This document shows positions 1,711 through 50,782 of a stretch of DNA of 64,000 nt, in pieces. A program made the translations under genes and the position numbers. The stretch is from Sphingobacteriaceae bacterium (GTDB lineage: Bacteria; Bacillota; Sulfobacillia; Thermaerobacterales; RSA17): contig DATGRI010000058.1 of NCBI GenBank assembly GCA_035303785.1, positions 2,306 through 66,305 on the forward strand. Direction: 5' to 3'. Position 1 is the first letter of the stretch; each line of letters opens with the position of its first letter. The notes beneath the pieces are model-generated. The model saw only the letters and a program-made list of their open reading frames with translations, did not search any database and had not been told where the DNA came from.

Positions 1711-1714
1711 CACT

Positions 1715-3933: not shown

Positions 3934-3955
3934 GTAATCCTTCGTTGATCGCCGG

Positions 3956-3991: not shown

Positions 3992-4070
3992 CCCTCCGGT
4001 TTTCATACCAGCGGCCGCCGGAAATCGGCGGCACGCCATCCGCAGAAGCTTTGCCACGCCCCTGGAACCG

Positions 4071-4838: not shown

Positions 4839-4844
4839 GGACCT

Positions 4845-8277: not shown

Positions 8278-8333
8278 GTGGCGCCATCCCTGCCAAAGGG
8301 ACGGCACGGCGGGCTGCACCCCCGGCGACCTCC

Positions 8334-11356: not shown

Positions 11357-11691
11357 CAAGCGCCGCCCCCTTCCCCTTCGGCGCCGGCCATCATGGACGG
11401 CACCCGGAAATAACCGTCGCAGGCGTCGGGGGCGTTGGCCAGGGCCTCCTCCTGGGTGAGGCCGGGACGCACTTCATCGGGGCGGAACTCTCCGGGGCGC
11501 TCCGAGGGCTCCACCAAGGGCTCCACCCCCTGGACATCGGCGTCCTGAACCTCCCGGCACAATTCCAAAAGACCCGTCAACTCCTCGGCCAGGGCGGCGG
11601 CCTCCTCGGGGCTCACCGCCAGGCGGGCCGTCCGGGCCAATTCCATCACTTGCTGCTGGGATAGAGACAAAGGGTTTCCCTCCTGCACCAT
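11356..11691 (-). CDS. gatC: Glu-tRNA(Gln) amidotransferase subunit C
   Basis: Starts [43 protein letters not shown]... and contains the GatC-type block RPDEVRPGLTQEEALANAP. ATG 11691 overlaps the oppF stop (TGATG). Confidence 0.85.
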   Translation of the reverse strand: MVQEGNPLSLSQQQVMELARTARLAVSPEEAAALAEELTGLLELCREVQDADVQGVEPLVEPSERPGEFRPDEVRPGLTQEEALANAPDACDGYFRVPSMMAGAEGEGGGA

Positions 11692-12683: not shown

Positions 12684-12685
12684 CG

Positions 12686-13687: not shown

Positions 13688-13718
13688 GACCTCACCGCCA
13701 CCCTTTATGCCGGCTCCT

Positions 13719-18052
<4,334 letters not shown>

Positions 18053-20652: not shown

Positions 20653-21933
20653 TCAGCCGGCGGCGGCGGCGGCGATGTCCCGGCGGAAGTGCATGCCGTC
20701 GAAATGAATCTTCTCGATGGCGGCGTAGACCGTCTCCCGGGCGCCGGCCAGGGACGGGCCCCGGGCCACCACGTTCAAGATGCGGCCGCCGTTGGTGACC
20801 CAGCCCTTGTCGGAATCCCAGCGGGTGCCGGCGTGGAACACCTGCACGTTGGGCATGCCGGGCACGTGGCCCGTCTCATCCAGCCCTTGGATGACGTCGC
20901 CCTTGCGGGGCTCCCCGGGATAGCCGTGGGCCGCCAGGACCACGCATACGGCCGCCTCATCCCGCCACACCCAAGGCTGCTGGGCCAGATTGCCCTGGGC
21001 GCAGGCCAAGGCCAAGGCGGCGAAATCGCTTTCCAGGCAGGGGAGGATGACCTGGGCCTCGGGATCTCCCAAGCGGCAGTTGAACTCCAGCACGTAAGGG
21101 CCGTCCTCCGTCAGCATCATGCCGGCGTACAGCACGCCCCGGAAAGGAATGCCCTCGGCGGCCATGCCCGCCACCGTCCGCTGCAGCACGTCCTTCTCCA
21201 GGCGGCTCACCAGGTCGGGATCCAGGAAGGGCACCGGGGAGTAGGCGCCCATGCCGCCGGTGTTGGGCCCCTCGCCCCCGTCGTACAGGGCCTTGTGGTC
21301 CTGGGAAGCGGGGCAGAGGCGCACCGTCTCGCCGTCGGTAAAGGCCAGGAGGGTGACTTCAGGACCCTGCAGCCGCTCCTCGATGACCACCCGCCGGCCC
21401 GACTCGCCAAACCGGCCCCGGCGCATCATGGCATCCACCGCCTCCAGGGCCGTTTCCGTGTCGGCCGCCACCACCACACCCTTGCCGGCGGCCAGGCCGT
21501 CGGCCTTGACCACGATGGGGCCGCCCCGGGAGCGGATGTAGTCTTCGGCTTCGGCGGGGTCGTCGAACACCTTGCCGGGGGCCGTCGGAATGCCGTGGCG
21601 CTCCATGAACGACTTGGCGTAGGCCTTGCTCCACTCCAGCCGGGAGGCCTGCTTGGTGGGGCCGAAGGCCGGTATGCCCGCCTCCTGCAGTCCGTCCACC
21701 ACGCCGGCGGCCAAGGGCGCCTCGGGGCCCACCAAAACCAGGTCCACCTTGTTGGCCTGGGCCGCAGCCACCACGTCGGCAGGCGACAACGGGTCGCCGG
21801 GGAGGCACGTGGCCCGCTTGCCGATGGCGTCACTGCCGGGCAGGGCGAAAATTTCGGTCACCGAGGGCGAAGCCAGCAAGGTCTCCACCATGGTGTGCTC
21901 ACGGCCGCCGCTGCCGATCACCATTACCCGCAT
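20653..21933 (-). CDS. purD: Phosphoribosylamine--glycine ligase
   Basis: [50 protein letters not shown]. Typical PurD throughout. Confidence 0.93.
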
Positions 21934-21959
21934 GAATGCATCCCACCCTTACGAAAAGG

Positions 21960-23648
21960 TCAATGACGGAAATGCCGAACCCCAGTCATCAACATGGCCA
22001 CACCCAGGCGGTCGCAGGCATCCACCACCTCCTGGTCGCGGATGGAGCCGCCGGGCTGCACCACCACCTTCACTCCCCCCTCGGCGGCCACCTCCACCCC
22101 GTCGGGGAAAGGGAAGAAGGCGTCGGAAGCCATGACGGCCCCTTGGGCCGCCTCGCCCGCCTGGGCCACCGCCTGGCGCACCGCATCCACGCGGCTGGTG
22201 CGGGCGGCGCCGATGCCCACGGCCCGCTGGTCCTTCACCAGGACGATGGCATTGGAAGGCAGGTGGCGCACCAGATGCCAGGCGAAGAGCATGTCGTCCC
22301 ACGCCTCCGCCGGGGGCTGGGCCTTGGTCGCCACCCGCCACTGGTCCGGCTGGACGGGCAGGTCATCCTCGTCCTGGAGGAGCACACCCCCTTGGATGCG
22401 GCGCACGTCCCAGCCGGCCAGGCCCACGCCCACGGGTCCCGTGGAGGCGCCGCCGCCCACGGGCCCAGCGCCCGCGGGCCCTTGGCCCGAACCCCCGTCA
22501 TCACCCGACGCAGCCGGCGGCAGGGGCATGGTCAACACCCGCAGGTTGGCCCGTCCCGCCAGGATCTCCTGGGCTTCAGGGGAAACTCCCGGCGCCAGCA
22601 CTACTTCCAGGAAGATGTCCGCCAGCAGCCGGGCCGTCTCCTCGTCGATGACCCGGTTCAAGGCCACGATGCCGCCGAAGATGGAAACGGGATCGGCGTC
22701 CCGGGCGCGGCGGAAGGCCTCGGCCGGGTCGGGGCCGCAGGCGGCGCCGCAGGGGATGGTGTGCTTCACCGCCACCGCCGCCGGCGGCACCAGGGTGCTC
22801 ACCAGGCGCCAGGCGGCCTCGGCATCCTGCAGGTTGTTGAAGGACAACTCCTTGCCCTGCAGCTGCCGGGCGGCGGGCAGCCCCAACTGCCAGCCCGGGG
22901 CCGTGGGGGGTATGGCGGCGTCCCGGTAGACCGCCGCCTTCTGGTGGGGGTTCTCGCCGTAGCGCAGGCCCGCTGTCCGCCGGAGGGGCAGCACCAGCCG
23001 CTGGGGGGGCTCCACCCCGGCCTCACCCGTCTCCCCCGCTTCCTGGCCCAGGGCCGCCGCCACCACAGCGTCGTAGTAGGCGGTGTGGGCGAAGGCCCGG
23101 GCCGCCAGGCGGCGGCGGAGTTCCTCGGAAATACCGCCGGCCCCTCCTTCCTGCAGGGCCTGGATGACGGCCGGATAGTCGTCGGGGTCCACCACCACCG
23201 TGACCCAGGGCCAGTTCTTGGCCGCCGCCCTGATCATGGCGGGGCCGCCGATGTCGATCTGCTCCAGCAGGTCCATGCCCTGGGCGCCGCCGTGCCAGGC
23301 CGTCTCGAAGGGATACAGGTTGACGGCCACCAAATCGATGGCCTGCAGGCCGTGGCGGGCCCAGTCGGCCATGTCCTCTTCCCGGTCCCGCCGCCCCAGG
23401 ATGGCGCCGTGGACGGCGGGGTGCAAGGTCTTGACCCGGCCTCCCAGCATTGCGGGAAAGCCCGTCAGTTGGTCCACGGGCACCACCTGCAGGCCGGCGG
23501 CAGCCAACGCCGCCAGGGTCCCGCCGGTGGAAACCAATTCAAACCCGGCCGCCGCCAGGGCGCGGCCCAAATCTTCGATTCCCCGTTTGTCCGCCACGCT
23601 CAGCAGGGCCCGCCGGACCCGGCCGGCGCCGGCATCGTTAGCGGTCAT
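21960..23648 (-). CDS. purH: Bifunctional AICAR formyltransferase / IMP cyclohydrolase
   Basis: IMPCH N-domain (RALLSVADKRGIEDLGRALAAAGFELVSTGGT, KTLHPAVHGAIL) and AICARFT C-domain (SDAFFPFPDG, GGSIRDQEVVDACD, MLMTGVRHFRH). It contains a G/P/A-rich inter-domain insertion. Confidence 0.93.
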   Translation of the reverse strand: MTANDAGAGRVRRALLSVADKRGIEDLGRALAAAGFELVSTGGTLAALAAAGLQVVPVDQLTGFPAMLGGRVKTLHPAVHGAILGRRDREEDMADWARHGLQAIDLVAVNLYPFETAWHGGAQGMDLLEQIDIGGPAMIRAAAKNWPWVTVVVDPDDYPAVIQALQEGGAGGISEELRRRLAARAFAHTAYYDAVVAAALGQEAGETGEAGVEPPQRLVLPLRRTAGLRYGENPHQKAAVYRDAAIPPTAPGWQLGLPAARQLQGKELSFNNLQDAEAAWRLVSTLVPPAAVAVKHTIPCGAACGPDPAEAFRRARDADPVSIFGGIVALNRVIDEETARLLADIFLEVVLAPGVSPEAQEILAGRANLRVLTMPLPPAASGDDGGSGQGPAGAGPVGGGASTGPVGVGLAGWDVRRIQGGVLLQDEDDLPVQPDQWRVATKAQPPAEAWDDMLFAWHLVRHLPSNAIVLVKDQRAVGIGAARTSRVDAVRQAVAQAGEAAQGAVMASDAFFPFPDGVEVAAEGGVKVVVQPGGSIRDQEVVDACDRLGVAMLMTGVRHFRH

Positions 23649-23650
23649 CT

Positions 23651-24346
23651 TTATGCTTCTGCCTCCTCCGGCACCGGGGGTGCCACATGGACCCGCCGCC
23701 CTTCAACCCGGAGGCGTCCCTGGGCGTACAGCCGGATGGCCTCGGGCAGGAGCCGGTGCTCCACCGCCTGGATGCGGCGATGAAGGGTGCCGGGGTCGTC
23801 TTCGGGCAAGACCGGCACCGCCTCCTGCAGGATGATGGGCCCGGTGTCCATGCCGTAATCGACGAAATGAACGGTGCAGCCGCTCACCTTGACGCCCCAG
23901 TCCAAGGCCTGGGTAGGAGCCTGCAGACCGGGGAAGGCGGGCAGCAGCGAGGGATGAACGTTGATGATCCGGTTGGGAAAGGCGTCCACCATGGGGGCGC
24001 TCAGCAGCCGCATGAAGCCGGCCAGCACCACCAGTTCCACCCGGTGGGCCACCAGCACGTCCCGCAGCTGGCGATCATAGTCGGCCCGGGTGGGCCAGGG
24101 GCCGGGATCCAGCCACAAGGCCGGCACGCCGGCGGCCCGGGCTTTTTCCAATGCCGGCGCATCCCCCTTGTCGGATACCACCAGAACTACTTCCGCCCCC
24201 AGGTCTCCCCGGGCCTGGGCGGCCAGGACCGCCTCCATGTTGCTGCCCCGGCCCGAGGCCAGGACGGCCACCCGCACCGGTTCCCGGGCAGGCCGGCCTG
24301 AATCGGGGGCGCTGCCCTCCTCCCGCTGGGCACCGGCCGTGTTCAT
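23651..24346 (-). CDS. purN: Phosphoribosylglycinamide formyltransferase
   Basis: VLASGRGSNMEAVL, INVHPSLLPAFPG, GCTVHFVDYGMDTGPII. ATG 24346 overlaps the purM stop (ATGA). The longer track ORF is rejected. Confidence 0.9.
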   Translation of the reverse strand: MNTAGAQREEGSAPDSGRPAREPVRVAVLASGRGSNMEAVLAAQARGDLGAEVVLVVSDKGDAPALEKARAAGVPALWLDPGPWPTRADYDRQLRDVLVAHRVELVVLAGFMRLLSAPMVDAFPNRIINVHPSLLPAFPGLQAPTQALDWGVKVSGCTVHFVDYGMDTGPIILQEAVPVLPEDDPGTLHRRIQAVEHRLLPEAIRLYAQGRLRVEGRRVHVAPPVPEEAEA

Positions 24347-25410
24347 GACCAAATCACCTCCGGCTTGCTGTCGGGCGGCGCCTCCTCTACGACGCCGATG
24401 GGCCAGGCGCCTCCCGTCAGGGGCGCCATGGCGGCACAAAATTCTTGGGCTTGGGCTGCCGGCACCACCACGGTGAAGCCGATGCCCAAATTGAAGGTGC
24501 GGCGCATTTCTTCTTCCTCCACGGGACCCAGGCGCCGGATCAGCCGGAAGACAGGCGGCTCCGGCCACGACCCGGCGTGGAGCCGGGCCCTGGTCCCCGG
24601 GGGCAGGGTGCGGGCCACGTTGTCCGTAAGGCCGCCGCCGGTGATATGGGCCATGGCCCGCAGGGAAAAACGGCCCCGGGCGGCTTTGACGGCGCCCGTG
24701 TAAAGGCGGGTGGGCTCCAGCAGCACTGTGCCCAACGGCGCCTCCAGTTCATCGATCTCCGTGGCTAAAGTCCAGCCGGTCCCCGCCAGCAGCACCCGCC
24801 GGGCCAGGGAAAAGCCGTTGCTGTGGAGGCCCGAGGAAGCCAAGCCCACGATGACGTCCCCCGGCTCCACCGACCGGCCGTCAATCAAGTCCCCGGCGGC
24901 CACCCCGCCCACGGCGAAGCCCGCCAATTCCATGTCGTCGGGGCCCATCATGCCGGGCAGCTCCGCCGTCTCGCCCCCCAGCAGGGCGCAGCCGGCCTCC
25001 CGGCAGGCGGCGGCGATGCCCGACACCACCGCTTCCGCCTGGTCCGGCCGGAGCCTGCCCATGGCCAGGTAGTCCAGGAAGAACCAGGGCTCGGCCCCGT
25101 ACACCAAAATGTCGTTCACATTCATGGCCACCAAGTCCCGGCCGGCCCCCTCCAGCCGCCCGGCTTCCCGGGCCAGGAGCAGCTTGGTGCCCACCCCGTC
25201 GGCCGCCGCCAGCAGGATGGTTTCCGGCTGGGCCCCCGGCACCCGGAACATGCCGGCAAAGCCCCCCACCCCGGACACCACCTCGGGCCGGGCGGTGGAG
25301 GCCGCCAGGGCCCGGAACCGTCCCACCAAGCTTTCGGCGGCATCGATGTCGACGCCGGCGGCCCGGTAGGTCACGGGCCGGCGGGCGTCGTCGCCCCGGC
25401 TTTCAGTCAT
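24343..25410 (-). CDS. purM: Phosphoribosylformylglycinamidine cyclo-ligase (AIR synthetase)
   Basis: YRAAGVDIDA, GVGGFAGMF, DGVGTKLLLA, HSNGFSLAR. ATG 25410 overlaps the purF 3' end by 8 nt. Confidence 0.92.
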   Translation of the reverse strand: MTESRGDDARRPVTYRAAGVDIDAAESLVGRFRALAASTARPEVVSGVGGFAGMFRVPGAQPETILLAAADGVGTKLLLAREAGRLEGAGRDLVAMNVNDILVYGAEPWFFLDYLAMGRLRPDQAEAVVSGIAAACREAGCALLGGETAELPGMMGPDDMELAGFAVGGVAAGDLIDGRSVEPGDVIVGLASSGLHSNGFSLARRVLLAGTGWTLATEIDELEAPLGTVLLEPTRLYTGAVKAARGRFSLRAMAHITGGGLTDNVARTLPPGTRARLHAGSWPEPPVFRLIRRLGPVEEEEMRRTFNLGIGFTVVVPAAQAQEFCAAMAPLTGGAWPIGVVEEAPPDSKPEVIWS

Positions 25411-26896
25411 GGGGGTCCCGATCTCCTTCCCGGTTCCCGTCGCCGGCTGCCGGCCCCTGCTCCCCCACCGGGGGGAAGCGGCCGGTGAAGCAGCCGTGAC
25501 AATAGGCATTTTCGTCTTGGCCGGTAACGGCCAACATTCCTTTCAAGGAAAGAAAGTACAAACTGTCGGCTCCCACCAGGCGCCGCATTTCCTCCACATC
25601 CCGGCCGGCCGCCATCAACTCGCCCCGGCGGCCGATGTCCACGCCGAAGGGGCACGGGTGGCGGAAGGGGGGCGAGGTGATGCACAGGTGGACTTGGGCG
25701 GCCCCCGCCTGGCGGACGGCGTTGACCAAGGGCCGGATGGTGCTGCCCCGGACGATGGAGTCATCCACCAGCACCACCCGCCGTCCGGCCACCACGTCCC
25801 GGATGGGGTTCAGCCGCCAGCGCACCCCGGCGGGCACGTAGCGGCCCCGGGGTCCGATGAAGGTGCGCCCCACATACCGGTTCTTCACCAAGCCCAGTTC
25901 GAAGGGGATGCCGGTAGCGGCGCTGTAGCCCATGGCCGCGGGCAGGCTGGCGTCGGGCACCCCCAGGACCACGTCAGCGTCCACCACGTGCTCCTGGGCC
26001 AGCTGCCGGCCCAAGGCCTGGCGGATGGCATAGGTGGAGCGGCCGCCGAAGAGGCTGTCGGCCCGGGCCAGGTAAATCAATTCGAAAACGCAGAAAGCCT
26101 GGGGGGTGTTTTCCAGGGAGGGCAGCCGCCCCCACTGCAGCCCCTGGTCATCGATCCAAACCCAGTGGCCCGCGGGCACTTCCTGGAGGGTGTCGCCGCC
26201 CACGGCATCAAAGGCGCAGCTTTCCGAGGCCAGCAGGTAAGCCTGGTCCAGGCGGCCCAGCACCAAAGGCCGGATGCCGTGGCGATCGCGAAAGCCGAGG
26301 ATGCCTTGGGGGGTGGCGTAGACGGCGGCCATGCCCCCGTCCACTTGGGTGAGGGAGTGGCCCAGGGCTTGGGGCCAGCCGTCGCCCGGAGCCCGGGCCG
26401 CCAGGTGGGCCAGGATTTCCGCGGCGTCGCCGGAGCGGAAGACGGCCCCTTGGGCCTCCAGCCGCTGCCGCAGGGCATCGGCCCCGGCCAAGGCGCCGTT
26501 GATGGCCACGGCCAGGTGGCTGTCCCGGCACCGGACCACCAGGGGCTGCCGGTCCGCCGGCTCCGTGGACTGCTGGACGTGGCCCAGGACGATGGTGCGG
26601 GCTCCCCGGGGACCTAAGGCCAGGTCGGCCAGCTCCTCCCCGGAGAACACGTCGGTGACCAGGCCCCTGCCTCCCAGCCGGGCGAACTGGTCATCCCCGG
26701 GACCCCAGGCGGCCATGCCCGTCCTTTGCTGCCCCCGGTGCTGGAGGGCGAACAAGCCTTGGTAGGCAATGTGAACCCCTTCGGGATGCCCGAAGACGGC
26801 GAACAGGCCCGAGTGGTCCCCGGCGGCGCCCCCGCCGGAGCCCGACCGGGCGCTCCCCGACCCTCCCGCCGGCGGCCTCACTGCCGGGGCGCCCAT
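25403..26896 (-). CDS. purF: Amidophosphoribosyltransferase homologue with non-canonical glutaminase active site
   Basis: The PRTase and Fe-S parts are conserved (VVLVDDSIVRGST, SPPFRHPCPFGVD, YCHGCFTG, FCVFELIY). The position of the Ntn nucleophile Cys reads Ser (DHSGLFAVFG; TCG codon at 26812..26810). GHVRY is replaced by GHVQQ. The start is ATG 26896 or GTG 26881 (GTGA overlap with the purL stop). The 813-aa track ORF is rejected. Confidence 0.85.
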   Translation of the reverse strand: MGAPAVRPPAGGSGSARSGSGGGAAGDHSGLFAVFGHPEGVHIAYQGLFALQHRGQQRTGMAAWGPGDDQFARLGGRGLVTDVFSGEELADLALGPRGARTIVLGHVQQSTEPADRQPLVVRCRDSHLAVAINGALAGADALRQRLEAQGAVFRSGDAAEILAHLAARAPGDGWPQALGHSLTQVDGGMAAVYATPQGILGFRDRHGIRPLVLGRLDQAYLLASESCAFDAVGGDTLQEVPAGHWVWIDDQGLQWGRLPSLENTPQAFCVFELIYLARADSLFGGRSTYAIRQALGRQLAQEHVVDADVVLGVPDASLPAAMGYSAATGIPFELGLVKNRYVGRTFIGPRGRYVPAGVRWRLNPIRDVVAGRRVVLVDDSIVRGSTIRPLVNAVRQAGAAQVHLCITSPPFRHPCPFGVDIGRRGELMAAGRDVEEMRRLVGADSLYFLSLKGMLAVTGQDENAYCHGCFTGRFPPVGEQGPAAGDGNREGDRDPHD

Positions 26897-29727
26897 GGCG
26901 GCTTGACTCCCCGGCCCGGCTCGGGCAGGTGATCGACAGGAGTGGACAACAAGGAGCGGCCCGCCACGGTTACGGCCAACCGCCCGCCGCCGGCGGCGCC
27001 CAGCACCGCAGCCGGGACACCCGCCGACCGGGCGGCCGCCAGCACTTGATCCGCCGCCGCCGGCGGCGTGCTCACCAGCACCCGGGAGGGCCCTTCGCCG
27101 AAGAGCAGGGCTTCGGCGTCGCCGTCCCACTGGTCCGGGGACAGGTCCACCTGCACCCCCAAAGGCCCGCCGGCGGCGGTGCGGCAGGCCCGGGCCAGGG
27201 CGGCGGCCAGGCCGCCCAGGTCTATGCCGGCGGCCGAAGCCAGCAGCCCGTCGCTGTGCAGCTGCTGGAGCAAGGCCCACAGGCGGGCTTCCAAATCCGA
27301 ATCCACTTGGGGCGGGCGGCCCTGCACCCGGCCGTAGCGGACGGCCAGGTACTCGCTGCCTGCCAGGTCGCCGGCCAAGGGCCCCAAGACGAGCACCGCA
27401 TGGCCCGCGGCCAGCCAGCCGGGGCCCAGCACCGGCCGTCCCGGCGGGAGAACCCCCACCACCCCCACCACCGGGGTGGGGTAGACGCCTTGGCCGCCCC
27501 GTTCGTTGTAAAGGCTCACGTTGCCGCCCGTCACCGGCACGTCCAGGCTGCGGGCGGCGGCGCCCATGCCTTCGATGATCTCGGTGAATTCCCACATGAT
27601 GGCGGGATCTTCGGGGCTGCCCAGGTTGAGGCAGTTGGTCAGCCCCAAGGGCTTGGCCCCGGTGCAGGCCACCCGCCGGCCCGCCTCGGCCACGGCGGCG
27701 GCGGCGCCCCGCCGGGGATCCAGCCACGTCAGCCGGCCGTTGCCCGCCAGGGCCACCACCAGATGCTGGCCCGTCCCGGGCACCGGCACCGCCGCCGCTC
27801 CCGTGGCCAGCAAGGTGTTGTCGTCGTGCTTGCCGCCCAGCCAATGGGCTTCCGTCAGGTTGGGGCCCGCCAGCAAATCCACCAGGGCTTCGTCATAGTC
27901 GGTGGAGCCGGCTCCGGCGGCGGCCTCCCCGCCGGCGGGGGCAGGCTCCCAGCGCCGGGCCAGGTCGGCGGGCTCCGCCACAGGCCGCCGGTAGGCCGGC
28001 GCCCCCTCCGTCAGAATGGTGGCCGGCAGGGCCGCCAGTTCCACATCGCCCATGGTCACCCGCACCAGGCCGTGGTCGGCCACCCGGCCGATGCAGGCCC
28101 CGGGCACGTTCCACTGGGTCAGGATTTGCTCCACCTGGGACTCCTTGCCCGCCTTGACGATGAGCAGCATCCGCTCCTGGGTTTCCGAAAGCATGATCTC
28201 GTGGGGGCTGAGGCGGGGCTCCCGGCAGGGCACCAGGTCCAGGTCCAGGTCCACGCCCTGGCCGGCCCGCCCGGCCGTCTCCGAGGCCGCCGAGGTGATG
28301 CCCGCCGCGCCCAGGTCGTTGACGCCCACCAGCAGGTCCGCCTCCATCATGGCCAGGCAGGCCTCCACCAGGCGGCGCTTCAACTGGGGGTTGGCGGCAG
28401 GCACCGTGGTGGGGGGGATGACCTCGTCGTCCAAGCCCCGGGACGAGGCGCTGGCCGCCCGCACCCCGTCGGGCCCCGTGCGGGCGCCCACCAGGTAAAT
28501 GGGGTTGCCCACCCCTTCTGCCCGGCCCCGGAACACCCGGTCCCGGTCCACGAAGCCGGCCGCCAGCACGTTGACCAGGGGCGCGGGGCGGTACCCCTCG
28601 CCGGAAAAGACGCTGGCGGTGAAGGTGGCGATGCCGGTGCCGGCAGCGTAGTCGGCCATGCCCTCGGCCGCCCCCAGCAGGATGTCTTGGTTGTTGCCTT
28701 CCTCCAGGGGGCCTACCCGCAGGGCCCCCGCCAGGAGGGCCGGCCGGGAGCCCACGGCCAGGATGTCCCGGACGATGCCCCCGGCGCCGGTGGCGGCGCC
28801 CCGGTGGGGATCCAGGCTGGAAGGATGGTTGTGGCTTTCACAGCGCAGGGCCACGGCCACGGGGCCGCCCAGGTCCACCACGCCGGCGTTCTCCCCGGGG
28901 CCCAGGAGCACCTGGGGCCCTTCCCGGGGCAGCCGGGCCAGGTGGATGCGGGTGCTCTTGTAGGAGCAGTGCTCCGACCACATGGCTCCTACCATTTCTA
29001 ATTCCAACTGGTTGGGGGCCCGGCCCAGCCCCTGGACCAAATCGTCGTATTCCTCCCGGGTCAGGCCCACGGCCTGCCAGGGCTCCCGGTGGGCCGCCAC
29101 CCGGTCGTAAACTTCCTGCCACCCCGGCTGGGCCTGCTGCTCGGCGAGGGCCAGCCGGAGGGTCCGGGGCGAGAGCTCGCCGGCCAGGAGGAGGGCGCCG
29201 TCTTCCGTGCGGCCGAACTCCAAACGCAGGTGGATCAGGTCCAGGCCCCTTTCCTTAAGGAATGAGCCCAGCACATCGTTGACGGCCAGGGCCACCTGCT
29301 CCAGCCGCTCCACTTCGTCGGGGCCGGCCAGCCCCAGCACCTGCACATGATGGTGGTTGACCAGAACCTCCTGGGACTCGTCCCCCCGGTAATAAAGCTC
29401 CACCACGGGCCGGGGCAGGGTGGAGCCGGGGGTCAGGCCCAGGCGCCGGGCCCAGGGCTCTTCCGCGGCGTTCCGCACCAGCACCGCCAGGGGGATGGGG
29501 GCTGTCCCCTGGACCAGCATCTCCCGGGGGTTCACCCGGGCGATGAAGTGGTTGGGTATGCCGGCTTCCGTCAAAACTTGAAACAGGCGGGCGGAAATCT
29601 CGTTGCCGGCCTCTTCCTTGAAATGAATCAAACAGCGATCGGGCCGGGCCGTGCCGTAAACGATCTTCGCCTCGTCTTCCCGCAGCTTCGGCCTGGCGCC
29701 GGCGTCCGGCGGCGATTGTCTATCCAT
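26878..29727 (-). CDS. purL: FGAM synthase subunit PurL fused to an N-terminal degenerate PurC (SAICAR synthetase)-like domain
   Basis: A single uninterrupted 949-aa ORF with ATG 29727 after GGGGAGGGGGAGGG. Residues ~225-949 are PurL (MWSEHCSYKS, ESHNHPS, GAATGAGGIVRD, MLSETQERMLL, GGNVSLYNE). Residues ~15-215 are collinear with PurC (GIPNHFI, PLAVLVRN, VVELYYRGD, LRLEFG, LAGELSPRTLRL) but lack the YEGKAK and DSATAFNG...GKG segments. Confidence 0.85.
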   Translation of the reverse strand: MDRQSPPDAGARPKLREDEAKIVYGTARPDRCLIHFKEEAGNEISARLFQVLTEAGIPNHFIARVNPREMLVQGTAPIPLAVLVRNAAEEPWARRLGLTPGSTLPRPVVELYYRGDESQEVLVNHHHVQVLGLAGPDEVERLEQVALAVNDVLGSFLKERGLDLIHLRLEFGRTEDGALLLAGELSPRTLRLALAEQQAQPGWQEVYDRVAAHREPWQAVGLTREEYDDLVQGLGRAPNQLELEMVGAMWSEHCSYKSTRIHLARLPREGPQVLLGPGENAGVVDLGGPVAVALRCESHNHPSSLDPHRGAATGAGGIVRDILAVGSRPALLAGALRVGPLEEGNNQDILLGAAEGMADYAAGTGIATFTASVFSGEGYRPAPLVNVLAAGFVDRDRVFRGRAEGVGNPIYLVGARTGPDGVRAASASSRGLDDEVIPPTTVPAANPQLKRRLVEACLAMMEADLLVGVNDLGAAGITSAASETAGRAGQGVDLDLDLVPCREPRLSPHEIMLSETQERMLLIVKAGKESQVEQILTQWNVPGACIGRVADHGLVRVTMGDVELAALPATILTEGAPAYRRPVAEPADLARRWEPAPAGGEAAAGAGSTDYDEALVDLLAGPNLTEAHWLGGKHDDNTLLATGAAAVPVPGTGQHLVVALAGNGRLTWLDPRRGAAAAVAEAGRRVACTGAKPLGLTNCLNLGSPEDPAIMWEFTEIIEGMGAAARSLDVPVTGGNVSLYNERGGQGVYPTPVVGVVGVLPPGRPVLGPGWLAAGHAVLVLGPLAGDLAGSEYLAVRYGRVQGRPPQVDSDLEARLWALLQQLHSDGLLASAAGIDLGGLAAALARACRTAAGGPLGVQVDLSPDQWDGDAEALLFGEGPSRVLVSTPPAAADQVLAAARSAGVPAAVLGAAGGGRLAVTVAGRSLLSTPVDHLPEPGRGVKPPWAPRQ

Positions 29728-29760
29728 GGGCCCTCCCCCTCCCCGGCAGATAGGCGGCGG

Positions 29761-31059
29761 TCACAAGCCCGCCCGGCGGTAAATGTGGTCCATGTGGCGC
29801 AAGGCCCGGGCCGGATCGAAGCATTCCCGGATCTGCTCCTCCGTCAGCTTGTCCCGGATGCGGGGATCCTGCATGACCAGGTCCGGGAACCGGCCCCGCC
29901 CTTCCCAGGCGTCCATGGCCAGGCCCTGGACGATGCCGTAGGCTTCCTCCCGGCTGAGGCCGGCGTCCACCAGAGCCAGCATCAAAGCCTGGGAGTAGAT
30001 CAAGCCGCCGGTCCGCTCCAAGTTGGCGGCCATGGCCTGGGGGTACACGTGCATGCCTTCCAAAACTACGGTCATCAGGTGGAGCATGTAGTCCAGCAGG
30101 ATGGTGGTGTCGGGCAGGATGATGCGCTCCACCGACGAGTGGGAAATGTCCCGCTCGTGCCACAAGGGCTGGTTCTCCAAGGCCGCCAGGGCGTTGCCCC
30201 GCACCACCCGGGCCAGGCCGCTGATGCGCTCGCACAAAACGGGATTGCGCTTGTGGGGCATGGCCGAGGAGCCCTTTTGGCCCGCCCGGAAAGGCTCCTC
30301 CACCTCCCGGGTTTCCGTCTTCTGCAGGTGGCGGATTTCCACGGCCATGGTCTCCAGGCTGCCGGCCAAAATGGCCAGGGCGGCCATCAATTCGGCGTGC
30401 CGGTCCCGCTGCAGCACCTGGGTGGACACCCCCGCGGGCTCCAGGCCCAAGGCCCGGCAGACGTACTCTTCCACCCGGGGGTCCACGGTGGCGAAGGTGC
30501 CCACGGCCCCCGACAGGCGGCCCACGCTGATGGTCTCCCGGGCCCGGACCAGCCGCTCCCGGTTGCGGCCGGCCTCGGCATACCACAAGGCCAGCTTGAA
30601 GCCGAAGGAAATGGGCTCGGCGTGGACGCCGTGGGTGCGGCCCACCATGATGGTGTCCCGGTGCTCCCGGGCGGCGGCGGCCAGAACCTCCCGCAGGCGG
30701 TCCAAGCCTTCCAGCAACATGTCCACCGCTTCCCTTAGGGCCAGGGACAGGGCGGTGTCCACCACGTCGTAGGAGGTGAGGCCGTAGTGGATCCAGCGGG
30801 CGTTGGGCCCCATGACCTCCCCCAGCCAGGTGGTGAAGGCTATGACGTCGTGGTGAACTTCGGCTTCGATGGCGTTGATGCGGTCTTCGTCGAAATATTC
30901 CGGCCGGCGGGCCTTCAAGTCTTCCACCGCTTCAGGGGGTACGTGCCCCAACCGGGCGAAGGCCTCGCAGGCCAGCAGCTCCACTTCCAGCCAGCGGCGG
31001 TACTTGGCCTGGTTGCTCCACAGGGCGGCCATGGCGGGGCGGGAATAACGGGGAATCAT
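29761..31059 (-). CDS. purB: Adenylosuccinate lyase
   Basis: [27 protein letters not shown], and fumarate-lyase signature GSSAMPHKRNP. ATGA overlap with the purE stop. Confidence 0.94.
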   Translation of the reverse strand: MIPRYSRPAMAALWSNQAKYRRWLEVELLACEAFARLGHVPPEAVEDLKARRPEYFDEDRINAIEAEVHHDVIAFTTWLGEVMGPNARWIHYGLTSYDVVDTALSLALREAVDMLLEGLDRLREVLAAAAREHRDTIMVGRTHGVHAEPISFGFKLALWYAEAGRNRERLVRARETISVGRLSGAVGTFATVDPRVEEYVCRALGLEPAGVSTQVLQRDRHAELMAALAILAGSLETMAVEIRHLQKTETREVEEPFRAGQKGSSAMPHKRNPVLCERISGLARVVRGNALAALENQPLWHERDISHSSVERIILPDTTILLDYMLHLMTVVLEGMHVYPQAMAANLERTGGLIYSQALMLALVDAGLSREEAYGIVQGLAMDAWEGRGRFPDLVMQDPRIRDKLTEEQIRECFDPARALRHMDHIYRRAGL

Positions 31060-31622
31060 GGGCTCTCACCGCTGCCGGCGGTTTCTTGGGGGCTGCCCGC
31101 CCCGGCAAGCCGGCGGCGCAGTTCATCGCCGGCGGCGGCCACCTGGGCCGCCATCTGCTCCCGGTGGGCCGCCAGGCGGGGCACCAGTTCCGGGTAGCGC
31201 AGGGCCAGGATGCGGGCCGCCAGGAAGGCGGCGTTGGCGCCCCCGTCGATGGCTACCGTGGCCACGGGCACGCCGCTGGGCATCTGCACCGTGGCCAGGA
31301 GGGCGTCCAGGCCGTCGGTGGCCCAGGCTTTCACGGGCACGCCGATCACCGGCAGGTGGGTGTAGGCGGCGATGACGCCGGCCAGGTGGGCGGAGCCCCC
31401 CGCCAAGGCGATGATGACGGCTATGCCCCGTTCATGGGCTGTACGGGCGAATTGGGCTACGGTGTCGGGGGTGCGGTGGGCGGAAGCGACGGTGACTTCG
31501 TAGGGAATGGCCAGTTGGTCTAGTGTAGTGGTGACCTTGGCGACCACCGGGGCATCGGAGGCACTGCCGGCCAGTACGGCCACCAGAGGCCCGGGGAGGC
31601 CGTCGCCCTGGGCGGGTGTCAC
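31056..31622 (-). CDS. purE: N5-CAIR mutase (class I PurE)
   Basis: [21 protein letters not shown] (class-I type), [22 protein letters not shown] 31622 lies 4 nt after GGAGGTGG. No purK follows it. Confidence 0.9.
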
Positions 31623-31763: not shown

Positions 31764-32414
31764 CTAGTCCAGGGTGACGAGCCCCTTGCGGATGGCGTAC
31801 TTGGTCAACTGCACCGCATCGTGGAGCTGCAGCTTCTCCATGATGTTGGCCCGGTGGGCCTGCACCGTCTTGATGCTGATGAACAGGCGGTCGGCGATCT
31901 GCTGGTTGGTGAGGCCGTCGGCCACCAGCTTCAGCACTTCGATCTCCCGCTCCGTCAGGCCGTCGTAATCTTCCCGCTTCTCCCCGGCGCCCCGGCCGTG
32001 GAAGGCCATCCGGGCCACCTCGGGGTGGAGAATGGTGTGGCCCTGATGGACGGCCCGCAGGGCGGTCTTCAACTCCGAGGCCGCCGACCGCTTCAGCACG
32101 TAGCCCGCCGCGCCGGCCTGCATCAGCGGTGCCACGTATTCCTCGTCATCGTGCATGCTCAGGATGAGCACCTTGGTCTCGGGGAAGTCCTTGCGGATCT
32201 TGCGGGTGGCCTCGATGCCGTTCATGCGGGGCATGCCGATGTCCATCAGCACCACGTCGGGCCGCAGTTCGGCCACCATGGCCACGGCCTCTTCCCCGTC
32301 GGCGGCTTCGCCCACCACTTCCACATCGTCCTCCCGCTCCAGCAGGGAGCGGATCCCCTGGCGCAATATGCTGTGGTCGTCCACCAGCAGCACCCTGATG
32401 CGCTCTTCAGCCAT
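31764..32414 (-). CDS. Response regulator, NarL/LuxR (DegU/LiaR-like) family
   Basis: REC domain (RVLLVDDHSILRQG, DVVLMDIGMPRMNG) plus LuxR HTH (LTEREIEVLKLVADGLTNQQIADRLFISIKTVQAHR). ATG 32414 lies 6 nt after GGAGGGG. Confidence 0.9.
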   Translation of the reverse strand: MAEERIRVLLVDDHSILRQGIRSLLEREDDVEVVGEAADGEEAVAMVAELRPDVVLMDIGMPRMNGIEATRKIRKDFPETKVLILSMHDDEEYVAPLMQAGAAGYVLKRSAASELKTALRAVHQGHTILHPEVARMAFHGRGAGEKREDYDGLTEREIEVLKLVADGLTNQQIADRLFISIKTVQAHRANIMEKLQLHDAVQLTKYAIRKGLVTLD

Positions 32415-32428
32415 CTGCACCCCTCCCC

Positions 32429-33496: not shown

Positions 33497-34726
33497 TCAT
33501 TCCCATTCGATGGTGCCGGGGGGCTTGGCGGTAATATCATAGGCCACCCGGGTGATGCCGGGCACTTCCCGCAGGATGCGGTCCGACAGCCGGGCCAGCA
33601 GGTCGTGGGGCAGGCGGGCCCACCCGGCGGTGACGGCATCCTGGCCGGTTACGGCCCGCAGCACCAGGGCCTCGCCGTACACCCGGCGGCCGTCGTCGGT
33701 GCCCACGGCCCGGGCGCCCGTCAAGACGGCGAAATACTGCCAGATGTCCCGGTCCAGCCCCGCCTGCCGGATCTCCTCCCGGAGGATGGCATCGGCCCGG
33801 CGCAGGACGGCCAGGCGCTGCGGCGTTACCTCTCCCAGCACCCGGATGGCCAGCCCGGGGCCGGGGAAGGGCTGGCGCCAGATGAGTTCCGGCGGCAGCC
33901 CCAGGGCGACGCCCACATCCCGCACCTCGTCCTTGAACAAATAGCGCAGGGGCTCCAGCAGGTCCAATTCCATCCGCTCGGGCAGCCCCACGTTGTGGTG
34001 GGTCTTGAGGGCTTTCCCCGACAGGAGCCCGCTTTCCAAGACATCGGTGTAGAGGGTGCCCTGGAGAAGGAAATCCATGTGGCCCAGGCGCCGGGCCTCC
34101 TCTTCGAAGACGGCGATGAATTCAGCCCCGATGCGGCGCCGCTTTTCTTCGGGGTCGGCCACCCCGGCCAGGGCCGCCAGGAACCGCTCCCCCGCATCCA
34201 CCGTGACTACGTTCCAGCCGAAGCTGCTGAAGGATTGGGGCACTTCCCGGGCCTCGCCCTCCCGCAGGAGGCCGTGGTCCACGAACAGGCACACCAGGCG
34301 CCGGCCGATGGCCCGGTGGACCAATGCCGCCGCCACCATGGAGTCCACGCCCCCGCTGAGGCCGGCCACCACGGTGCCGTCGCCCACCTTGTCCCGAATG
34401 GCCTGCACCGCCTGGTCCACCTGGGCCGCCGGCGACCAGCCGCCCCGACAGCCGCACTCCCGGAACAAGAAATCCCGCAGCCGGTCTTCGGCCACGGGCT
34501 CGCTGCCGGCCGCCAGGACGGGCAGTTCCGCCAATCCCGAAGCAGGGTCCTGATGGGTCGTCAACACCACGCCCCGCACCGCGGGCAGATCCCAGCCCTT
34601 GGGCGCGGTGCCGGGGGGCTGCAGTTCACAGTAAACGCCCAAGCTGCGAATTTGCCGCACCAGGCGGTGGCCCGCGCCGGTGCCGCCATCCACCACGATG
34701 ATGGCTTCGTCCCGGGAACGGAACAT
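33497..34726 (-). CDS. guaA: GMP synthase with intact ATP-pyrophosphatase/dimerisation domains but a truncated GATase domain
   Basis: The ATP-PPase P-loop ([11 protein letters not shown]) and C-terminus ([39 protein letters not shown]) are conserved. The N-terminus keeps only [27 protein letters not shown]... and then joins directly to the ...[10 protein letters not shown] linker. There is no G(V/I)CYGMQ Cys or HPE His/Glu segment. The protein is 409 aa, versus about 510-525 aa for fused GuaA as I recall. Confidence 0.85.
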
Positions 34727-50717: not shown

Positions 50718-50782
50718 GATCTCCACATCCCTTCCAGGTTGCCCGCGCAACGGGCTGCCCTTCCAGGATGTGCAGGGGAGCC

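What the first reader, a model, noticed from the sequence alone, without database searches (positions are those of the whole stretch)
26878..29727. Single ORF fusing a degenerate PurC-like domain to PurL, exactly where purC-purS-purQ-purL would be
The 949-aa ORF is uninterrupted. Residues ~15-215 are collinear with SAICAR synthetase (GIPNHFI, PLAVLVRN, VVELYYRGD, LRLEFG, LAGELSPRTLRL). The ATP and substrate motifs are lost: YEGKAK becomes REDEAK, roughly 17 aa of the DSATAFNG...GKG region are deleted, and ADEISPD becomes AGELSPR. The PurL part starts immediately afterwards, leaving no room for PurS. Several PurL auxiliary-site blocks also look diverged (GATFAS becomes AASASS, QVGDPF becomes PAANPQ), while the catalytic-half motifs are kept. 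A pseudo-PurC domain could be a structural substitute for PurS/PurQ docking, or an evolutionary scar. I do not know of a characterised PurC-PurL fusion.
Basis: partly seen in the sequence, partly recalled or inferred. Interest (0 to 1): 0.7.

Follow-up and report, generated by a model that had tools for sequence, protein, structure and literature searches.

The report
Dead PurC domain fused to PurL
In an uncultured high-GC Bacillota lineage, a deletion removed two helper genes of a purine-synthesis enzyme and welded the inactive remains of the neighbouring enzyme (PurC) onto it (PurL); this is one of several changes suggesting that the purine pathway here takes nitrogen from free ammonia rather than from glutamine.

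Summary
A 949-aa ORF on the minus strand (26878-29727) joins a SAICAR-synthetase (PurC) fold to a complete small PurL. The same DNA occurs in at least 6 independent sequencing runs. A sister lineage (dS about 0.37) carries the same fusion.

The PurC part is catalytically dead. The ATP loop is lost (GK to DE), the TAxN strand is deleted, Mg/substrate carboxylates are lost, and the C-terminus is cut off. It is not neutral DNA: dN/dS is 0.34, and 0.19 for residues 15-100.

The nearest relatives share the synteny but keep separate purC-purS-purQ-purL. The fusion is therefore a roughly 1.1-kb deletion scar running from PurC residue ~194 to PurL residue 2.

PurL keeps its catalytic core. It is heavily remodelled in the ammonia-tunnel wall and in the C-loop that normally contacts PurS, and both elements are now strongly conserved.

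In the same operon PurF has Cys1 replaced by Ser, and GuaA has lost its glutaminase domain.

Best reading: a PurS/PurQ-independent, ammonia-using PurL with a retained pseudo-PurC N-domain. A working purC, purS or purQ elsewhere in the genome could not be checked.

The parts
26878..29727 (-). Fusion gene: pseudo-PurC domain + linker + complete small PurL (949 aa + stop)
   Evidence: Identical DNA in 6 independent runs. Sister ortholog P0136/L090.
29728..29744 (-). Shine-Dalgarno region (GGGGAGGGGGAGGGCCC) directly upstream of the ATG, in the 33-nt gap after purB
   Evidence: Conserved in the sister lineage, so the N-domain is translated.
29155..29685 (-). PurC-derived domain (residues 15-191). 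SAICAR-synthetase fold, catalytically dead.
   Evidence: Pfam PF01259 E 2e-35. AF2 of residues 1-221 gives pLDDT 90.6, and Foldseek matches PurC structures at TM ~0.85, rmsd 1.9 A. Of 24 published active-site positions, 11 are lost or deleted and 4 are conservatively replaced. 41 of 75 family-invariant columns are lost.
29665..29682 (-). Former ATP-phosphate loop: (Y)EGKAK has become REDEAK (Gly to Asp18, Lys to Glu19)
   Evidence: Residue roles from PMC9376930.
29607..29608 (-). Site of the 17-residue deletion (between residues 40 and 41) that removed the DDATAFDG...KG strand/loop, equivalent to PAICS Thr40-Asn43
   Evidence: The same deletion is present in the sister lineage.
29107..29154 (-). 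16-residue linker (192-207) of no detectable origin. This is the deletion junction.
   Evidence: no significant match to the PurC C-terminus, PurS or PurQ of the outgroup. The junction region 193-221 is the least constrained part (dN/dS 0.55).
26881..29106 (-). PurL part (residues 208-949), starting at the equivalent of outgroup PurL residue 2
   Evidence: AF2 pLDDT 85-98 and TM 0.93 to T. thermophilus PurL 3VIU. dN/dS 0.16.
28603..28671 (-). Remodelled ammonia-tunnel wall (residues 353-375; alpha12-beta13 of lgPurL). The family consensus YGNxxGVPTVGGE reads YAAGTGIATFTAS here.
   Evidence: 10 of 14 family-invariant columns changed. Equivalents of the StPurL tunnel residues P370 and N378 are Ala. 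Outgroups change 0-1 of 14. Now constrained, dN/dS 0.15.
28375..28473 (-). Remodelled catalytic C-loop and flanks (residues 419-451). TGRDGIHGATFAS...RPxVQVGDPFxEK reads TGPDGVRAASASS...PTTVPAANPQLKRR here.
   Evidence: 12 of 18 invariant columns changed, against 0 of 18 in the outgroups. 100% identical between the two fusion lineages. C-loop role from PMC7124931.
25403..26896 (-). purF, overlapping the fusion's 3' end by 19 nt. Its glutaminase domain lacks the catalytic residues.
   Evidence: Cys1 is Ser (codon at 26810-26812) and R73/Y74 are Gln/Gln. 29 of 125 invariant columns are lost. The score is 371 vs a cutoff of 350. The Gln domain is still constrained (dN/dS 0.14).
29761..31059 (-). 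purB, canonical, immediately upstream
   Evidence: 520 vs cutoff 326. 1 of 115 invariant columns lost.
31056..31622 (-). purE, first gene of the operon. No purK follows.
   Evidence: Gene order.
20653..25410 (-). purM (24343-25410), purN (23651-24346), purH (21960-23648), purD (20653-21933): the rest of the operon
   Evidence: all above equivalog cutoffs. dN/dS 0.06-0.16.
33497..34726 (-). guaA of 409 aa. It has the synthetase (ATP-PPase) part only. Residues 1-85 (34472-34726) are a remnant of the glutaminase domain.
   Evidence: only profile positions 179-512 match; residues 8-35 align to the E. coli GATase N-terminus with z 9.5, and the Cys/His/Glu part is deleted. Shared by the sister.

Best explanation
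SHOWN
- This is one real gene. Its product is a PurC-fold domain that can no longer make SAICAR, joined by a short linker to a complete small PurL.
- It arose when a deletion of about 1.1 kb, in an ancestor with the usual purC-purS-purQ-purL order, removed the last ~45 codons of purC plus all of purS and purQ. The cut joined in frame at codon 2 of purL.
- The N-domain is under purifying selection, about two-fold weaker than on PurL.

INFERRED
- The PurL part still makes FGAM but no longer works with PurS and PurQ. It takes free ammonia instead of glutamine-derived ammonia.
- That explains why the two PurL elements that serve glutaminase coupling were rebuilt and then frozen. These are the ammonia-tunnel wall and the C-loop that talks to the PurS-type adaptor.
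- The same shift happened in PurF (nucleophile Cys1 replaced by Ser) and in GuaA (glutaminase domain deleted). The purine pathway of this lineage therefore appears to run on ammonia.

MOST LIKELY ROLE OF THE N-DOMAIN (inferred, weakest step)
- It is kept as a folded, non-catalytic domain because PurL is translated through it.
- It may give PurL stability or a partner surface, in the position where lgPurL and mdPurL carry their PurS-like domain.
- A working purC must then exist elsewhere in the genome.
For: Single real gene:
- Identical DNA in 6 runs.
- Sister ortholog with the same operon.
- Strong, conserved SD before the ATG.

Dead PurC:
- Below the equivalog cutoff.
- Lost G16, K17, T40-N43, E97, D207, D212 and R232 (PAICS numbering from PMC9376930).
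- 55% of invariant columns lost, against a family median of 4%.
- Six former site positions differ between the two fusion lineages.

Fold kept: AF2 pLDDT 90.6, TM ~0.85 to PurC structures.

Selection:
- N-domain dN/dS 0.34; neutrality rejected, p = 2e-7.
- More relaxed than PurL (0.16), p = 0.001.
- Residues 15-100 have dN/dS 0.19.

Origin:
- L098 shares the synteny guaA-HK-RR-purE-purB but has separate purC, purS, purQ and purL.
- Junction mapped.

Uncoupled PurL:
- Catalytic His motifs and the equivalog score are kept.
- Losses of invariant positions are concentrated in the tunnel wall (10/14) and C-loop (12/18), against 35/171 elsewhere (OR 8.5, p = 2e-7).
- Outgroups that keep purS/purQ score 0-1/14 and 0/18.
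- A second lineage without purS/purQ in the operon (L099) is intermediate, at 6/14 and 9/18.
- Both elements are now strongly conserved.
- Their roles come from PMC7124931.

Pathway-wide pattern:
- PurF C1S and R73Q/Y74Q.
- E. coli PurF C1S loses glutamine use but keeps ammonia use (PMC3261824).
- GuaA lacks its GATase domain.
- GMPS synthetase modules can use external ammonia (PMC10526850).
- PurB, E, N, M and D are ordinary.
- All pur genes have dN/dS 0.06-0.18, so the pathway is in use.
Against: - There is no biochemistry.
- Only 64 kb of the genome was visible. purS, purQ, a GuaA glutaminase subunit and a second purC could all be encoded elsewhere, as purK evidently is.
- The search for a stand-alone PurC from the same MAG was inconclusive.
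- The AF2 full-length model gives no usable position for the N-domain.
- The confident N-domain model is driven by an alignment of canonical PurCs.
- dN/dS of 0.34 could reflect only the need to avoid a misfolding leader on an essential enzyme.
- The limits of the tunnel-wall and C-loop segments were set after seeing the data.
- PurL has also lost 20% of invariant positions outside those segments, so a change of chemistry cannot be excluded.
- The lgPurL, PAICS, PurF and GuaA reference sequences were recalled from memory. For lgPurL 14/14 and for PAICS 24/24 published residue identities matched. The E. coli PurF and GuaA sequences had no such check.
- The selection test rests on a single pair of lineages.
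- An internal GTG start near codons 210-220 is not excluded.
Confidence: 0.55

Rival explanations
1. Tolerated scar only. The deletion fused a useless PurC stump to PurL. The stump has no function of its own. It stays open because PurL is translated through it, and it stays foldable only because a misfolded leader would harm an essential enzyme.
For: The origin by deletion is clear. The domain is about twice as relaxed as PurL, and nonsynonymous polymorphisms concentrate in it: 6 in 215 codons against 2 in 734. Former active-site positions drift between the two lineages. The junction is poorly conserved. AF2 finds no confident docking.
Against: Neutrality is firmly rejected, and residues 15-100 are as constrained as real enzymes (dN/dS 0.19). 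The domain has not been shortened or lost in either lineage. By contrast, lineage L099 lost purC from this position entirely.
Confidence: 0.3
2. PurS and PurQ are simply encoded elsewhere. PurL is still a glutamine-dependent PurLSQ enzyme, and the pseudo-PurC domain is irrelevant to it or helps docking.
For: purK is also absent from the operon, although PurE has the class I-type AHL motif (own knowledge). So some pur genes do lie elsewhere. In L093, purC and purL are adjacent without purS/purQ, yet PurF and PurC are canonical. Only 64 kb was examined.
Against: The PurL elements that mediate coupling to PurS and PurQ are the most altered parts: tunnel wall 10/14 and C-loop 12/18 invariant positions changed. 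They are unaltered in relatives that keep purS/purQ. PurF and GuaA lost their own glutaminase functions on the same branch.
Confidence: 0.15
3. Neofunctionalised enzymes. The remodelled PurL (and PurF) now catalyse a different reaction or use a different substrate, with the pseudo-PurC domain as a new ligand-binding module.
For: PurL has lost 28% of family-invariant positions and PurF 23%, and both only just pass their equivalog cutoffs. The changed regions are now strongly conserved. The N-domain keeps two of the three CAIR-phosphate binders (R85 and R191). These residue roles are from my own knowledge of PurC structures.
Against: The genes sit in an otherwise complete, canonical and constrained pur operon with no second purL or purF nearby. 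The catalytic His motifs, the DX4GxxP signature and the PRTase motifs are kept.
Confidence: 0.07
4. Bifunctional PurC-PurL: the N-domain is still a working SAICAR synthetase with unusual residues.
For: The domain is folded, constrained and of nearly full length, and no other purC was found in the window. K21, D116, E170 and R191 are retained.
Against: The ATP loop Gly-Lys, the TAxN strand, Mg ligand E97, D207, D212 and the C-terminal Asp-binding helix are all lost. It scores far below the purC cutoff. Site residues differ between the two lineages.
Confidence: 0.03
5. Decaying operon: the organism salvages purines (hpt is adjacent) and these genes are on their way to becoming pseudogenes.
For: Several enzymes carry inactivating-looking changes (PurC, PurF, GuaA). 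In 69% GC DNA, long ORFs persist by chance, and many long spurious antisense ORFs are seen.
Against: Every gene shows strong purifying selection between two lineages separated by dS ~0.37 (dN/dS 0.06-0.21). There are no frameshifts or stops in any of 9 pur genes in two lineages. Homology is continuous across full-length profiles.
Confidence: 0.03

Closest known systems
mdPurL of some methanogens (Brown et al. 2011, PMC3261824)
   Same: A small-type PurL carrying about 200 extra N-terminal residues, in genomes that mostly lack purS. The extension sits where the PurS-like domain of lgPurL sits.
   Different: That extension was described as weakly PurS/lgPurL-like, and those organisms keep purQ. 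Here the extension is clearly PurC-derived, purQ is missing from the operon, and the glutaminase-coupling elements of PurL are remodelled. I did not test whether mdPurL extensions resemble PurC. None appeared among the 150 best of 1567 hits.
PurLSQ complex and large PurL (lgPurL) with its PurS-like N-terminal adaptor domain (PMC7124931, PMC3815217)
   Same: The same FGAM-synthetase core (TM 0.93 to 3VIU). The domain order is N-domain, then linker, then synthetase.
   Different: The N-domain has a PurC fold, not a PurS fold. There is no glutaminase domain or subunit in sight. The C-loop interface and tunnel-wall residues that are conserved in PurLSQ/lgPurL are replaced.
Canonical SAICAR synthetase PurC and its natural fusions (PAICS = PurC-PurE; PurC-PurS, PurB-PurC and PurC-PurF-like proteins seen here)
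   Same: Homologous fold and collinear sequence, 42-47% identity to Bacillota PurCs. PurC is often fused to pathway neighbours.
   Different: In those fusions the PurC motifs are intact. Here the domain is truncated, carries an internal deletion and lacks the catalytic residues. A PurC-PurL fusion was found only in this clade.
Pathway-derived pseudoenzymes kept as structural partners, e.g. the inactive dihydroorotase-like chain required by Pseudomonas ATCase (PMC7053772, abstract seen)
   Same: An inactive homolog of an enzyme from the same pathway is retained under selection next to a neighbouring enzyme of that pathway.
   Different: In the ATCase case the structural requirement is demonstrated and the partner is a separate chain. 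Here the pseudoenzyme is covalently fused and its role is only inferred.
Cysteine-less PurF-like proteins (PurF') of archaea and E. coli PurF C1S/C1A mutants (PMC3261824)
   Same: PurF without the N-terminal Cys nucleophile. Ammonia-dependent PRA synthesis has been proposed for PurF' and shown for the mutants.
   Different: Here the Cys-less protein is the operon's only purF. It is under strong constraint, and it co-occurs with loss of PurQ/PurS and of the GuaA glutaminase.

Membership tests
SAICAR synthetase, PurC (PF01259 / TIGR00081) | Sequence and fold homology to the family | tested here: met
   PF01259 E 2e-35, residues 34-201. AF2 model TM ~0.85, rmsd 1.9 A to 2YWV, 4FE2 and 2GQR.
SAICAR synthetase, PurC (PF01259 / TIGR00081) | Score above the curated equivalog cutoff | tested here: not met
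   TIGR00081 114 bits against a cutoff of 189.9.
SAICAR synthetase, PurC (PF01259 / TIGR00081) | ATP-phosphate loop G-K-x-K (PAICS G16-K19) | tested here: not met
   The loop reads D18-E19-A20-K21. Gly and the first Lys are invariant in all 16 bacterial PurCs compared.
SAICAR synthetase, PurC (PF01259 / TIGR00081) | Substrate strand T-A-x-N (PAICS T40-N43) | tested here: not met
   Removed by the 17-residue deletion, in both fusion lineages.
SAICAR synthetase, PurC (PF01259 / TIGR00081) | Mg2+/substrate carboxylates (PAICS E97, D137, D207, D212) | tested here: not met
   E97 is A81, D207 is G183, D212 is R188, and D137 is E120. Roles from PMC9376930.
SAICAR synthetase, PurC (PF01259 / TIGR00081) | C-terminal aspartate-binding K228/R232 (DKDRFR helix) | tested here: not met
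   PurC homology ends at residue 191, which equals PurC residue 194 of 239. The aligned positions read R209 and H213 in the window but L and R in the sister.
Small PurL, FGAM synthase II (NF002290 / TIGR01736) | Full-length match above the equivalog cutoff | tested here: met
   677.6 vs 648 and 608.3 vs 525.75, covering residues 222-934. This passes only narrowly.
Small PurL, FGAM synthase II (NF002290 / TIGR01736) | Catalytic-core motifs (SEHC, ESHNHPS, DX4GxxP, SExQERM, GGNVSxYNE) | tested here: met
   All are present in the alignments to 3VIU and 3D54 and to 80 family members. The roles of the two His residues are from my own knowledge of the T. maritima work, which could not be read.
Small PurL, FGAM synthase II (NF002290 / TIGR01736) | Works with PurS and PurQ, with purS and purQ adjacent in Bacillota operons | tested here: not met
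   No purS or purQ in the operon or in the 64-kb window. The rest of the genome was not visible.
Small PurL, FGAM synthase II (NF002290 / TIGR01736) | Conserved C-loop and ammonia-tunnel residues | tested here: not met
   22 of 32 invariant columns changed, against 0-1 in the nearest relatives.
Small PurL, FGAM synthase II (NF002290 / TIGR01736) | ATP-dependent conversion of FGAR to FGAM | not testable with these tools
   Needs an enzyme assay with NH4+ and with glutamine.
N-terminally extended PurL (lgPurL / mdPurL) | N-terminal domain structurally like a PurS dimer | tested here: not met
   The N-domain is PurC-like. The PurS HMM finds nothing.
N-terminally extended PurL (lgPurL / mdPurL) | C-terminal glutaminase domain (lgPurL only) | tested here: not met
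   The ORF ends after the B2 subdomain and purF follows directly.
N-terminally extended PurL (lgPurL / mdPurL) | About 200-aa N-extension on a small PurL in a genome region lacking purS (mdPurL) | tested here: met
   A 207-aa extension and no purS in the window. Homology between the two kinds of extension was not tested.
Pseudoenzyme domain | Clear homolog of an enzyme, catalytic residues lost, yet under purifying selection | tested here: met

The most novel reading that the evidence does not exclude
An entire de novo purine pathway has been rewired to use free ammonia. PurF has lost its nucleophile, PurQ and PurS are deleted, and the GuaA glutaminase is deleted. In the process the remains of PurC were co-opted as a non-homologous replacement for the PurS-type adaptor, contacting the rebuilt and now invariant C-loop of PurL.
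Probability: 0.2. Interest if true: 0.8.

Novelty: new variant of a known kind. Interest (0 to 1): 0.6.

Why it matters
The role of the N-terminal (PurS-type) adaptor of FGAM synthetase is still debated. Current work makes it the bridge that couples the glutaminase and synthetase sites. Here nature has removed the adaptor and the glutaminase and put an unrelated dead enzyme in the adaptor's place. The tunnel wall and C-loop were rebuilt on the same branch.

That gives a ready-made system to ask what PurL needs an N-domain for. It also allows a test of how an ammonia-tunnelling enzyme is converted to direct ammonia use.

If PurF, PurL and GuaA all work on free ammonia, this would be a rare case of a coordinated, pathway-level loss of glutamine dependence. 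It would bear on nitrogen economy in the ammonia-rich habitats where such Bacillota may live, and on automated annotation, which calls these proteins ordinary glutamine-dependent enzymes.

Tried and rejected
1. Within-population dN/dS. The nine assemblies of this species are 99.9-100% identical, with 3-5 differences per gene, so only a weak polymorphism count was possible. I used the sister lineage instead.
2. Full-length AF2 to see docking of the N-domain. The N-domain has pLDDT 23-55, so nothing can be read.
3. Looking for purC, purS and purQ.
   - HMMs against the six-frame window gave nothing.
   - One weak PurQ-like hit is a Peptidase_C26 protein.
   - Among the top 120 PurC homologs, none is attributed to this MAG.
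   - Contigs anchored near the window's right edge were too short.
4. The closest stand-alone PurCs, P0003 and P0005, belong to other organisms.
5. Frameshift or assembly artefact. Rejected by identical independent assemblies and continuous full-length profile matches.
6. Internal translation start for a separate PurL. Only weak, badly spaced SD-like motifs were found. This is not excluded.
7. Riboswitch or RNA elements. There are no Rfam hits in the window.
8. The key Ealick/Stubbe PurL papers are not in the library. Residue roles were taken from PMC7124931 and PMC9376930 instead.
9. My automatic residue numbering after 'mafft --keeplength' was wrong. I read the mapping from the printed block alignments instead.
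Full report
OBSERVATION. The ORF is on the minus strand, 26878-29727, with an ATG start, 949 codons and no internal stop. Pfam finds SAICAR_synt at residues 34-201 (E 2e-35), the FGAR-AT linker at 220-257, and two AIRS/AIRS_C pairs. NCBIfam places the PurL equivalog on residues 222-934, just above its cutoff (677.6 vs 648). The purC equivalog scores 114 against a cutoff of 189.9.

IS IT REAL. The 2850 nt are identical in six independent sequencing-run assemblies, and the protein also exists in NCBI, JGI and ENA records. Three further runs carry variants with 3-5 differences. An exhaustive phmmer search with the N-domain alone was run against 1.84 billion representative proteins. It found exactly one other protein with this architecture: P0136, 943 aa, 77% identical in the N-domain. 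P0136 comes from three further runs and sits in the same operon. A strong Shine-Dalgarno sequence precedes the ATG and is conserved in the sister lineage. Possible internal starts near codons 210-230 have only weak signals. The fusion is therefore a genuine gene, present in two lineages separated by dS of about 0.37.

THE N-DOMAIN IS A DEAD PurC WITH A LIVE FOLD. I mapped the 24 SAICAR-synthetase active-site residues listed for human PAICS (PMC9376930) through a family alignment. The PAICS sequence was recalled from memory, and all 24 published residue identities matched. The mapping shows:
- The ATP loop G-K is D-E.
- The T-A-x-N strand is deleted (17 residues).
- Mg ligand E97 is Ala, D207 is Gly, D212 is Arg and R232 is His.
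- Four further positions are conservatively replaced.
- Only K19, D133, E193 and R215 are kept.
- Six of the 20 surviving site positions differ between the two fusion lineages.

Of 75 columns that are at least 90% conserved in canonical PurCs, 41 are changed, against a family median of 4%. With a 61-sequence PurC alignment, AF2 still predicts residues 1-221 confidently (pLDDT 90.6). The model superposes on solved PurCs at TM ~0.85 and rmsd 1.9 A. The caveat is that canonical sequences drive this prediction.

ORIGIN. The operon on the minus strand reads purE-purB-[fusion]-purF-purM-purN-purH-purD. Upstream lie guaA, hpt and a two-component pair. The closest unfused PurLs are P0286 and P0287, at 53-54% identity, from 'Bacillota bacterium' MAGs with 72-73% GC. 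They lie in purE-purB-purC-purS-purQ-purL-purF-purM operons. L098 shares the upstream synteny guaA-kinase-regulator-purE-purB. In the window protein, PurC homology ends at residue 191, which is PurC residue 194 of 239. PurL homology begins at residue ~208, which is outgroup PurL residue 2 (z 6.5-7.4). The 16 residues between match nothing, and there is no PurS or PurQ remnant. The fusion is therefore the scar of a deletion of about 1.1 kb running from within purC to the purQ/purL boundary.

SELECTION. Nei-Gojobori estimates between the window and L090 are as follows:

| Region | dN/dS |
|---|---|
| N-domain, whole | 0.34 |
| N-domain 15-100 | 0.19 |
| N-domain 101-160 | 0.44 |
| N-domain 161-192 | 0.27 |
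| Junction 193-221 | 0.55 |
| PurL part | 0.16 |
| Other pur genes | 0.06-0.18 |

Neutrality of the N-domain is rejected (Fisher p = 2e-7). The domain is also significantly more relaxed than PurL (p = 0.001) and than the other pur genes (p = 9e-6). Population variants point the same way but are few: six nonsynonymous changes in the 215 N-domain codons against two in the 734 PurL codons.

THE PurL PART. Its core is intact. It aligns over its full length to T. thermophilus PurL, with SEHC, ESHNHPS, DX4GxxP, SETQERM and GGNVSLYNE all present. AF2 gives pLDDT 85-98 and TM 0.93 to 3VIU. It has nevertheless lost 57 of 203 family-invariant columns, against a family median of 2%.

The losses are concentrated in two stretches:
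- Residues 353-375. I mapped these with an lgPurL fragment recalled from memory, for which 14/14 published residue identities matched. They correspond to the alpha12-beta13 wall of the transient ammonia tunnel of Salmonella PurL. The equivalents of P370 and N378 are now Ala.
- Residues 419-451. This is the C-loop, which caps the FGAR site and whose 'interface region' contacts the PurS-like N-terminal domain to couple the two active sites (PMC7124931).

Ten of 14 and 12 of 18 invariant columns are changed there, against 35 of 171 elsewhere (OR 8.5, p = 2e-7). I set the segment limits after seeing the data.

Controls. The outgroup PurLs that keep purS and purQ have 0-1/14 and 0/18 changes. A third lineage, L099, has the order purB-purL-purF with no purC, purS or purQ at that position. 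It is intermediate at 6/14 and 9/18, and shares several derived states with the window. In the fusion clade the rebuilt C-loop is 100% identical between lineages, and the tunnel wall has dN/dS 0.15. These elements are new fixed states, not decay.

PATHWAY CONTEXT.
- PurF has Ser where every relative has the Cys1 nucleophile. R73/Y74 are Gln/Gln, several flexible-loop residues are changed, and 29 of 125 invariant columns are lost. It barely passes its cutoff (371 vs 350). Its glutamine domain nonetheless has dN/dS 0.14.
- In E. coli, PurF C1S abolishes glutamine use but not ammonia use (PMC3261824).
- GuaA is 409 aa and matches only the synthetase part of the profile. Its first 35 residues are a recognisable remnant of the glutaminase domain (z 9.5), and the Cys/His/Glu part is deleted. 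GMP synthetase ATP-PPase modules can use external ammonia (PMC10526850).
- Both features are shared by the sister lineage. The PurF change is absent from the outgroup L097, whose PurF is canonical; no full-length outgroup GuaA was available for comparison.
- PurB, PurE, PurN, PurM and PurD are ordinary.
- GatA, GatB and a Peptidase_C26 protein in the window look intact, so the loss is not genome-wide.

MECHANISM. The best-supported reading is that FGAM synthesis here no longer depends on PurS and PurQ and uses free ammonia. This would be part of a coordinated loss of glutaminase function in the three amidotransferase steps of purine synthesis.

The pseudo-PurC domain is a deletion remnant retained as a folded N-terminal domain. 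Whether it merely has to stay harmless, or has taken a structural or adaptor role at the position where other PurLs carry a PurS-like domain, is open. The strong constraint on residues 15-100 and the frozen, rebuilt C-loop are compatible with an adaptor role but do not show it.

The rest of the pathway, including PurE, is under selection. The operon's own purC was inactivated here and lost altogether from the same position in L099. A functional purC is therefore expected elsewhere, but I could not verify this.

COMPARISON AND NOVELTY. The closest known architecture is the 'mdPurL' of some methanogens. This is a small PurL with about 200 extra N-terminal residues, found in genomes lacking purS (PMC3261824). 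The closest functional analogy is a pathway-derived pseudoenzyme kept as a structural partner. PurC fusions to other neighbours exist (PurE in PAICS; PurS, PurB and PurF-like fusions), but those keep their catalytic motifs. A PurC-derived N-domain on PurL was found only in this clade. I rate it a new variant of a known kind. The pathway-wide pattern is the more surprising part.

LIMITS.
- There is no biochemistry.
- Only one pair of lineages was available for the selection tests.
- Only 64 kb of the genome was visible.
- Four reference sequences were recalled from memory; lgPurL and PAICS were validated by residue checks, E. coli PurF and GuaA were not.
- The NCBI label of the source MAG ('Sphingobacteriaceae bacterium') conflicts with its 69% GC, its synteny with Bacillota MAGs and a neighbouring cotE gene.

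Noticed in passing
window 25403-26896 (-), codon 29 at 26810-26812: PurF has Ser in place of the Cys1 nucleophile, after a 28-residue Gly/Ala-rich leader. R73/Y74 are Gln/Gln and flexible-loop residues are changed. The glutamine domain is nevertheless under strong purifying selection (dN/dS 0.14). All of this is shared by the sister lineage and absent in the outgroups.
   Followed up: yes
window 33497-34726 (-), remnant at 34472-34726: GuaA is only 409 aa. The glutaminase domain is reduced to an ~85-residue remnant that keeps the first beta-alpha unit but lacks the Cys/His/Glu triad. No Pfam GATase hit remains.
   Followed up: yes
L099 (Logan SRR24044310 contig), 1-5050: A third Bacillota lineage (61% GC) has purB directly followed by purL-purF-purM, with no purC, purS or purQ there. 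Its PurL is partly remodelled in the same tunnel-wall and C-loop positions. Its PurF keeps Cys1 but has Y74 replaced by His. It is unresolved whether this reflects shared ancestry with the window clade or convergence.
   Followed up: partly
L093 (JGI 3300017832 contig), 6642-16489: A distant 58% GC organism has purB-purC-purL-purF with no purS or purQ between purC and purL. It also has a purM-purN fusion gene (605 aa). Its PurC and PurF motifs are canonical.
   Followed up: partly
proteins P0421, P0422, P0431, P0454, P0492, P0144; P0151, P0280, P0245: Other PurC fusions occur in public data. PurC-PurS (349-380 aa) is found in relatives of the outgroup. Single examples of PurB-PurC, PurC-PurF and PurC-PurH-like proteins also occur. 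All have intact PurC motifs where inspected. Some may be gene-calling artefacts.
   Followed up: no
window 21960-23648 (-): PurH has lost 24 of 173 family-invariant positions (14%, against a family median of 2%). It also carries a Gly/Pro/Ala-rich insertion around residues 385-425, yet its dN/dS is 0.14.
   Followed up: no
window 31056-31622 (-): PurE has the class I-type motif (GGSAHLAGV), but no purK follows it, either here or in the outgroup L098. At least one pur gene of this clade therefore lies outside the operon.
   Followed up: no
window 31764-33481 (-): A HisKA_3 histidine kinase and a GerE-type response regulator sit between guaA and purE. This placement is conserved in the sister lineage and in the outgroup L098. 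A role in regulating the purine cluster is possible. No purine riboswitch or any other Rfam family was found in the window.
   Followed up: no
whole window; NCBI protein HLS89319.1: The source MAG is labelled 'Sphingobacteriaceae bacterium'. The DNA is 69% GC, is syntenic with 'Bacillota bacterium' MAGs, has PurC relatives in Thermaerobacter and Calditerricola, and has a cotE spore-coat gene just beyond the right edge (L100). The taxonomic label is probably wrong.
   Followed up: partly
window 49965-51278 (-): A Peptidase_C26 / class-I GATase-like protein carries a ~200-residue N-terminal extension with no Pfam match. It was the only weak PurQ-HMM hit in the window.
   Followed up: partly
window 25403-27844 (-), 26929-29001 (+), and many others: There are very long spurious ORFs on other frames and strands, for example 813 aa running upstream of purF through the fusion's 3' end, and 690 aa antisense to the fusion. 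They are a consequence of ~70% GC and should not be read as genes.
   Followed up: partly
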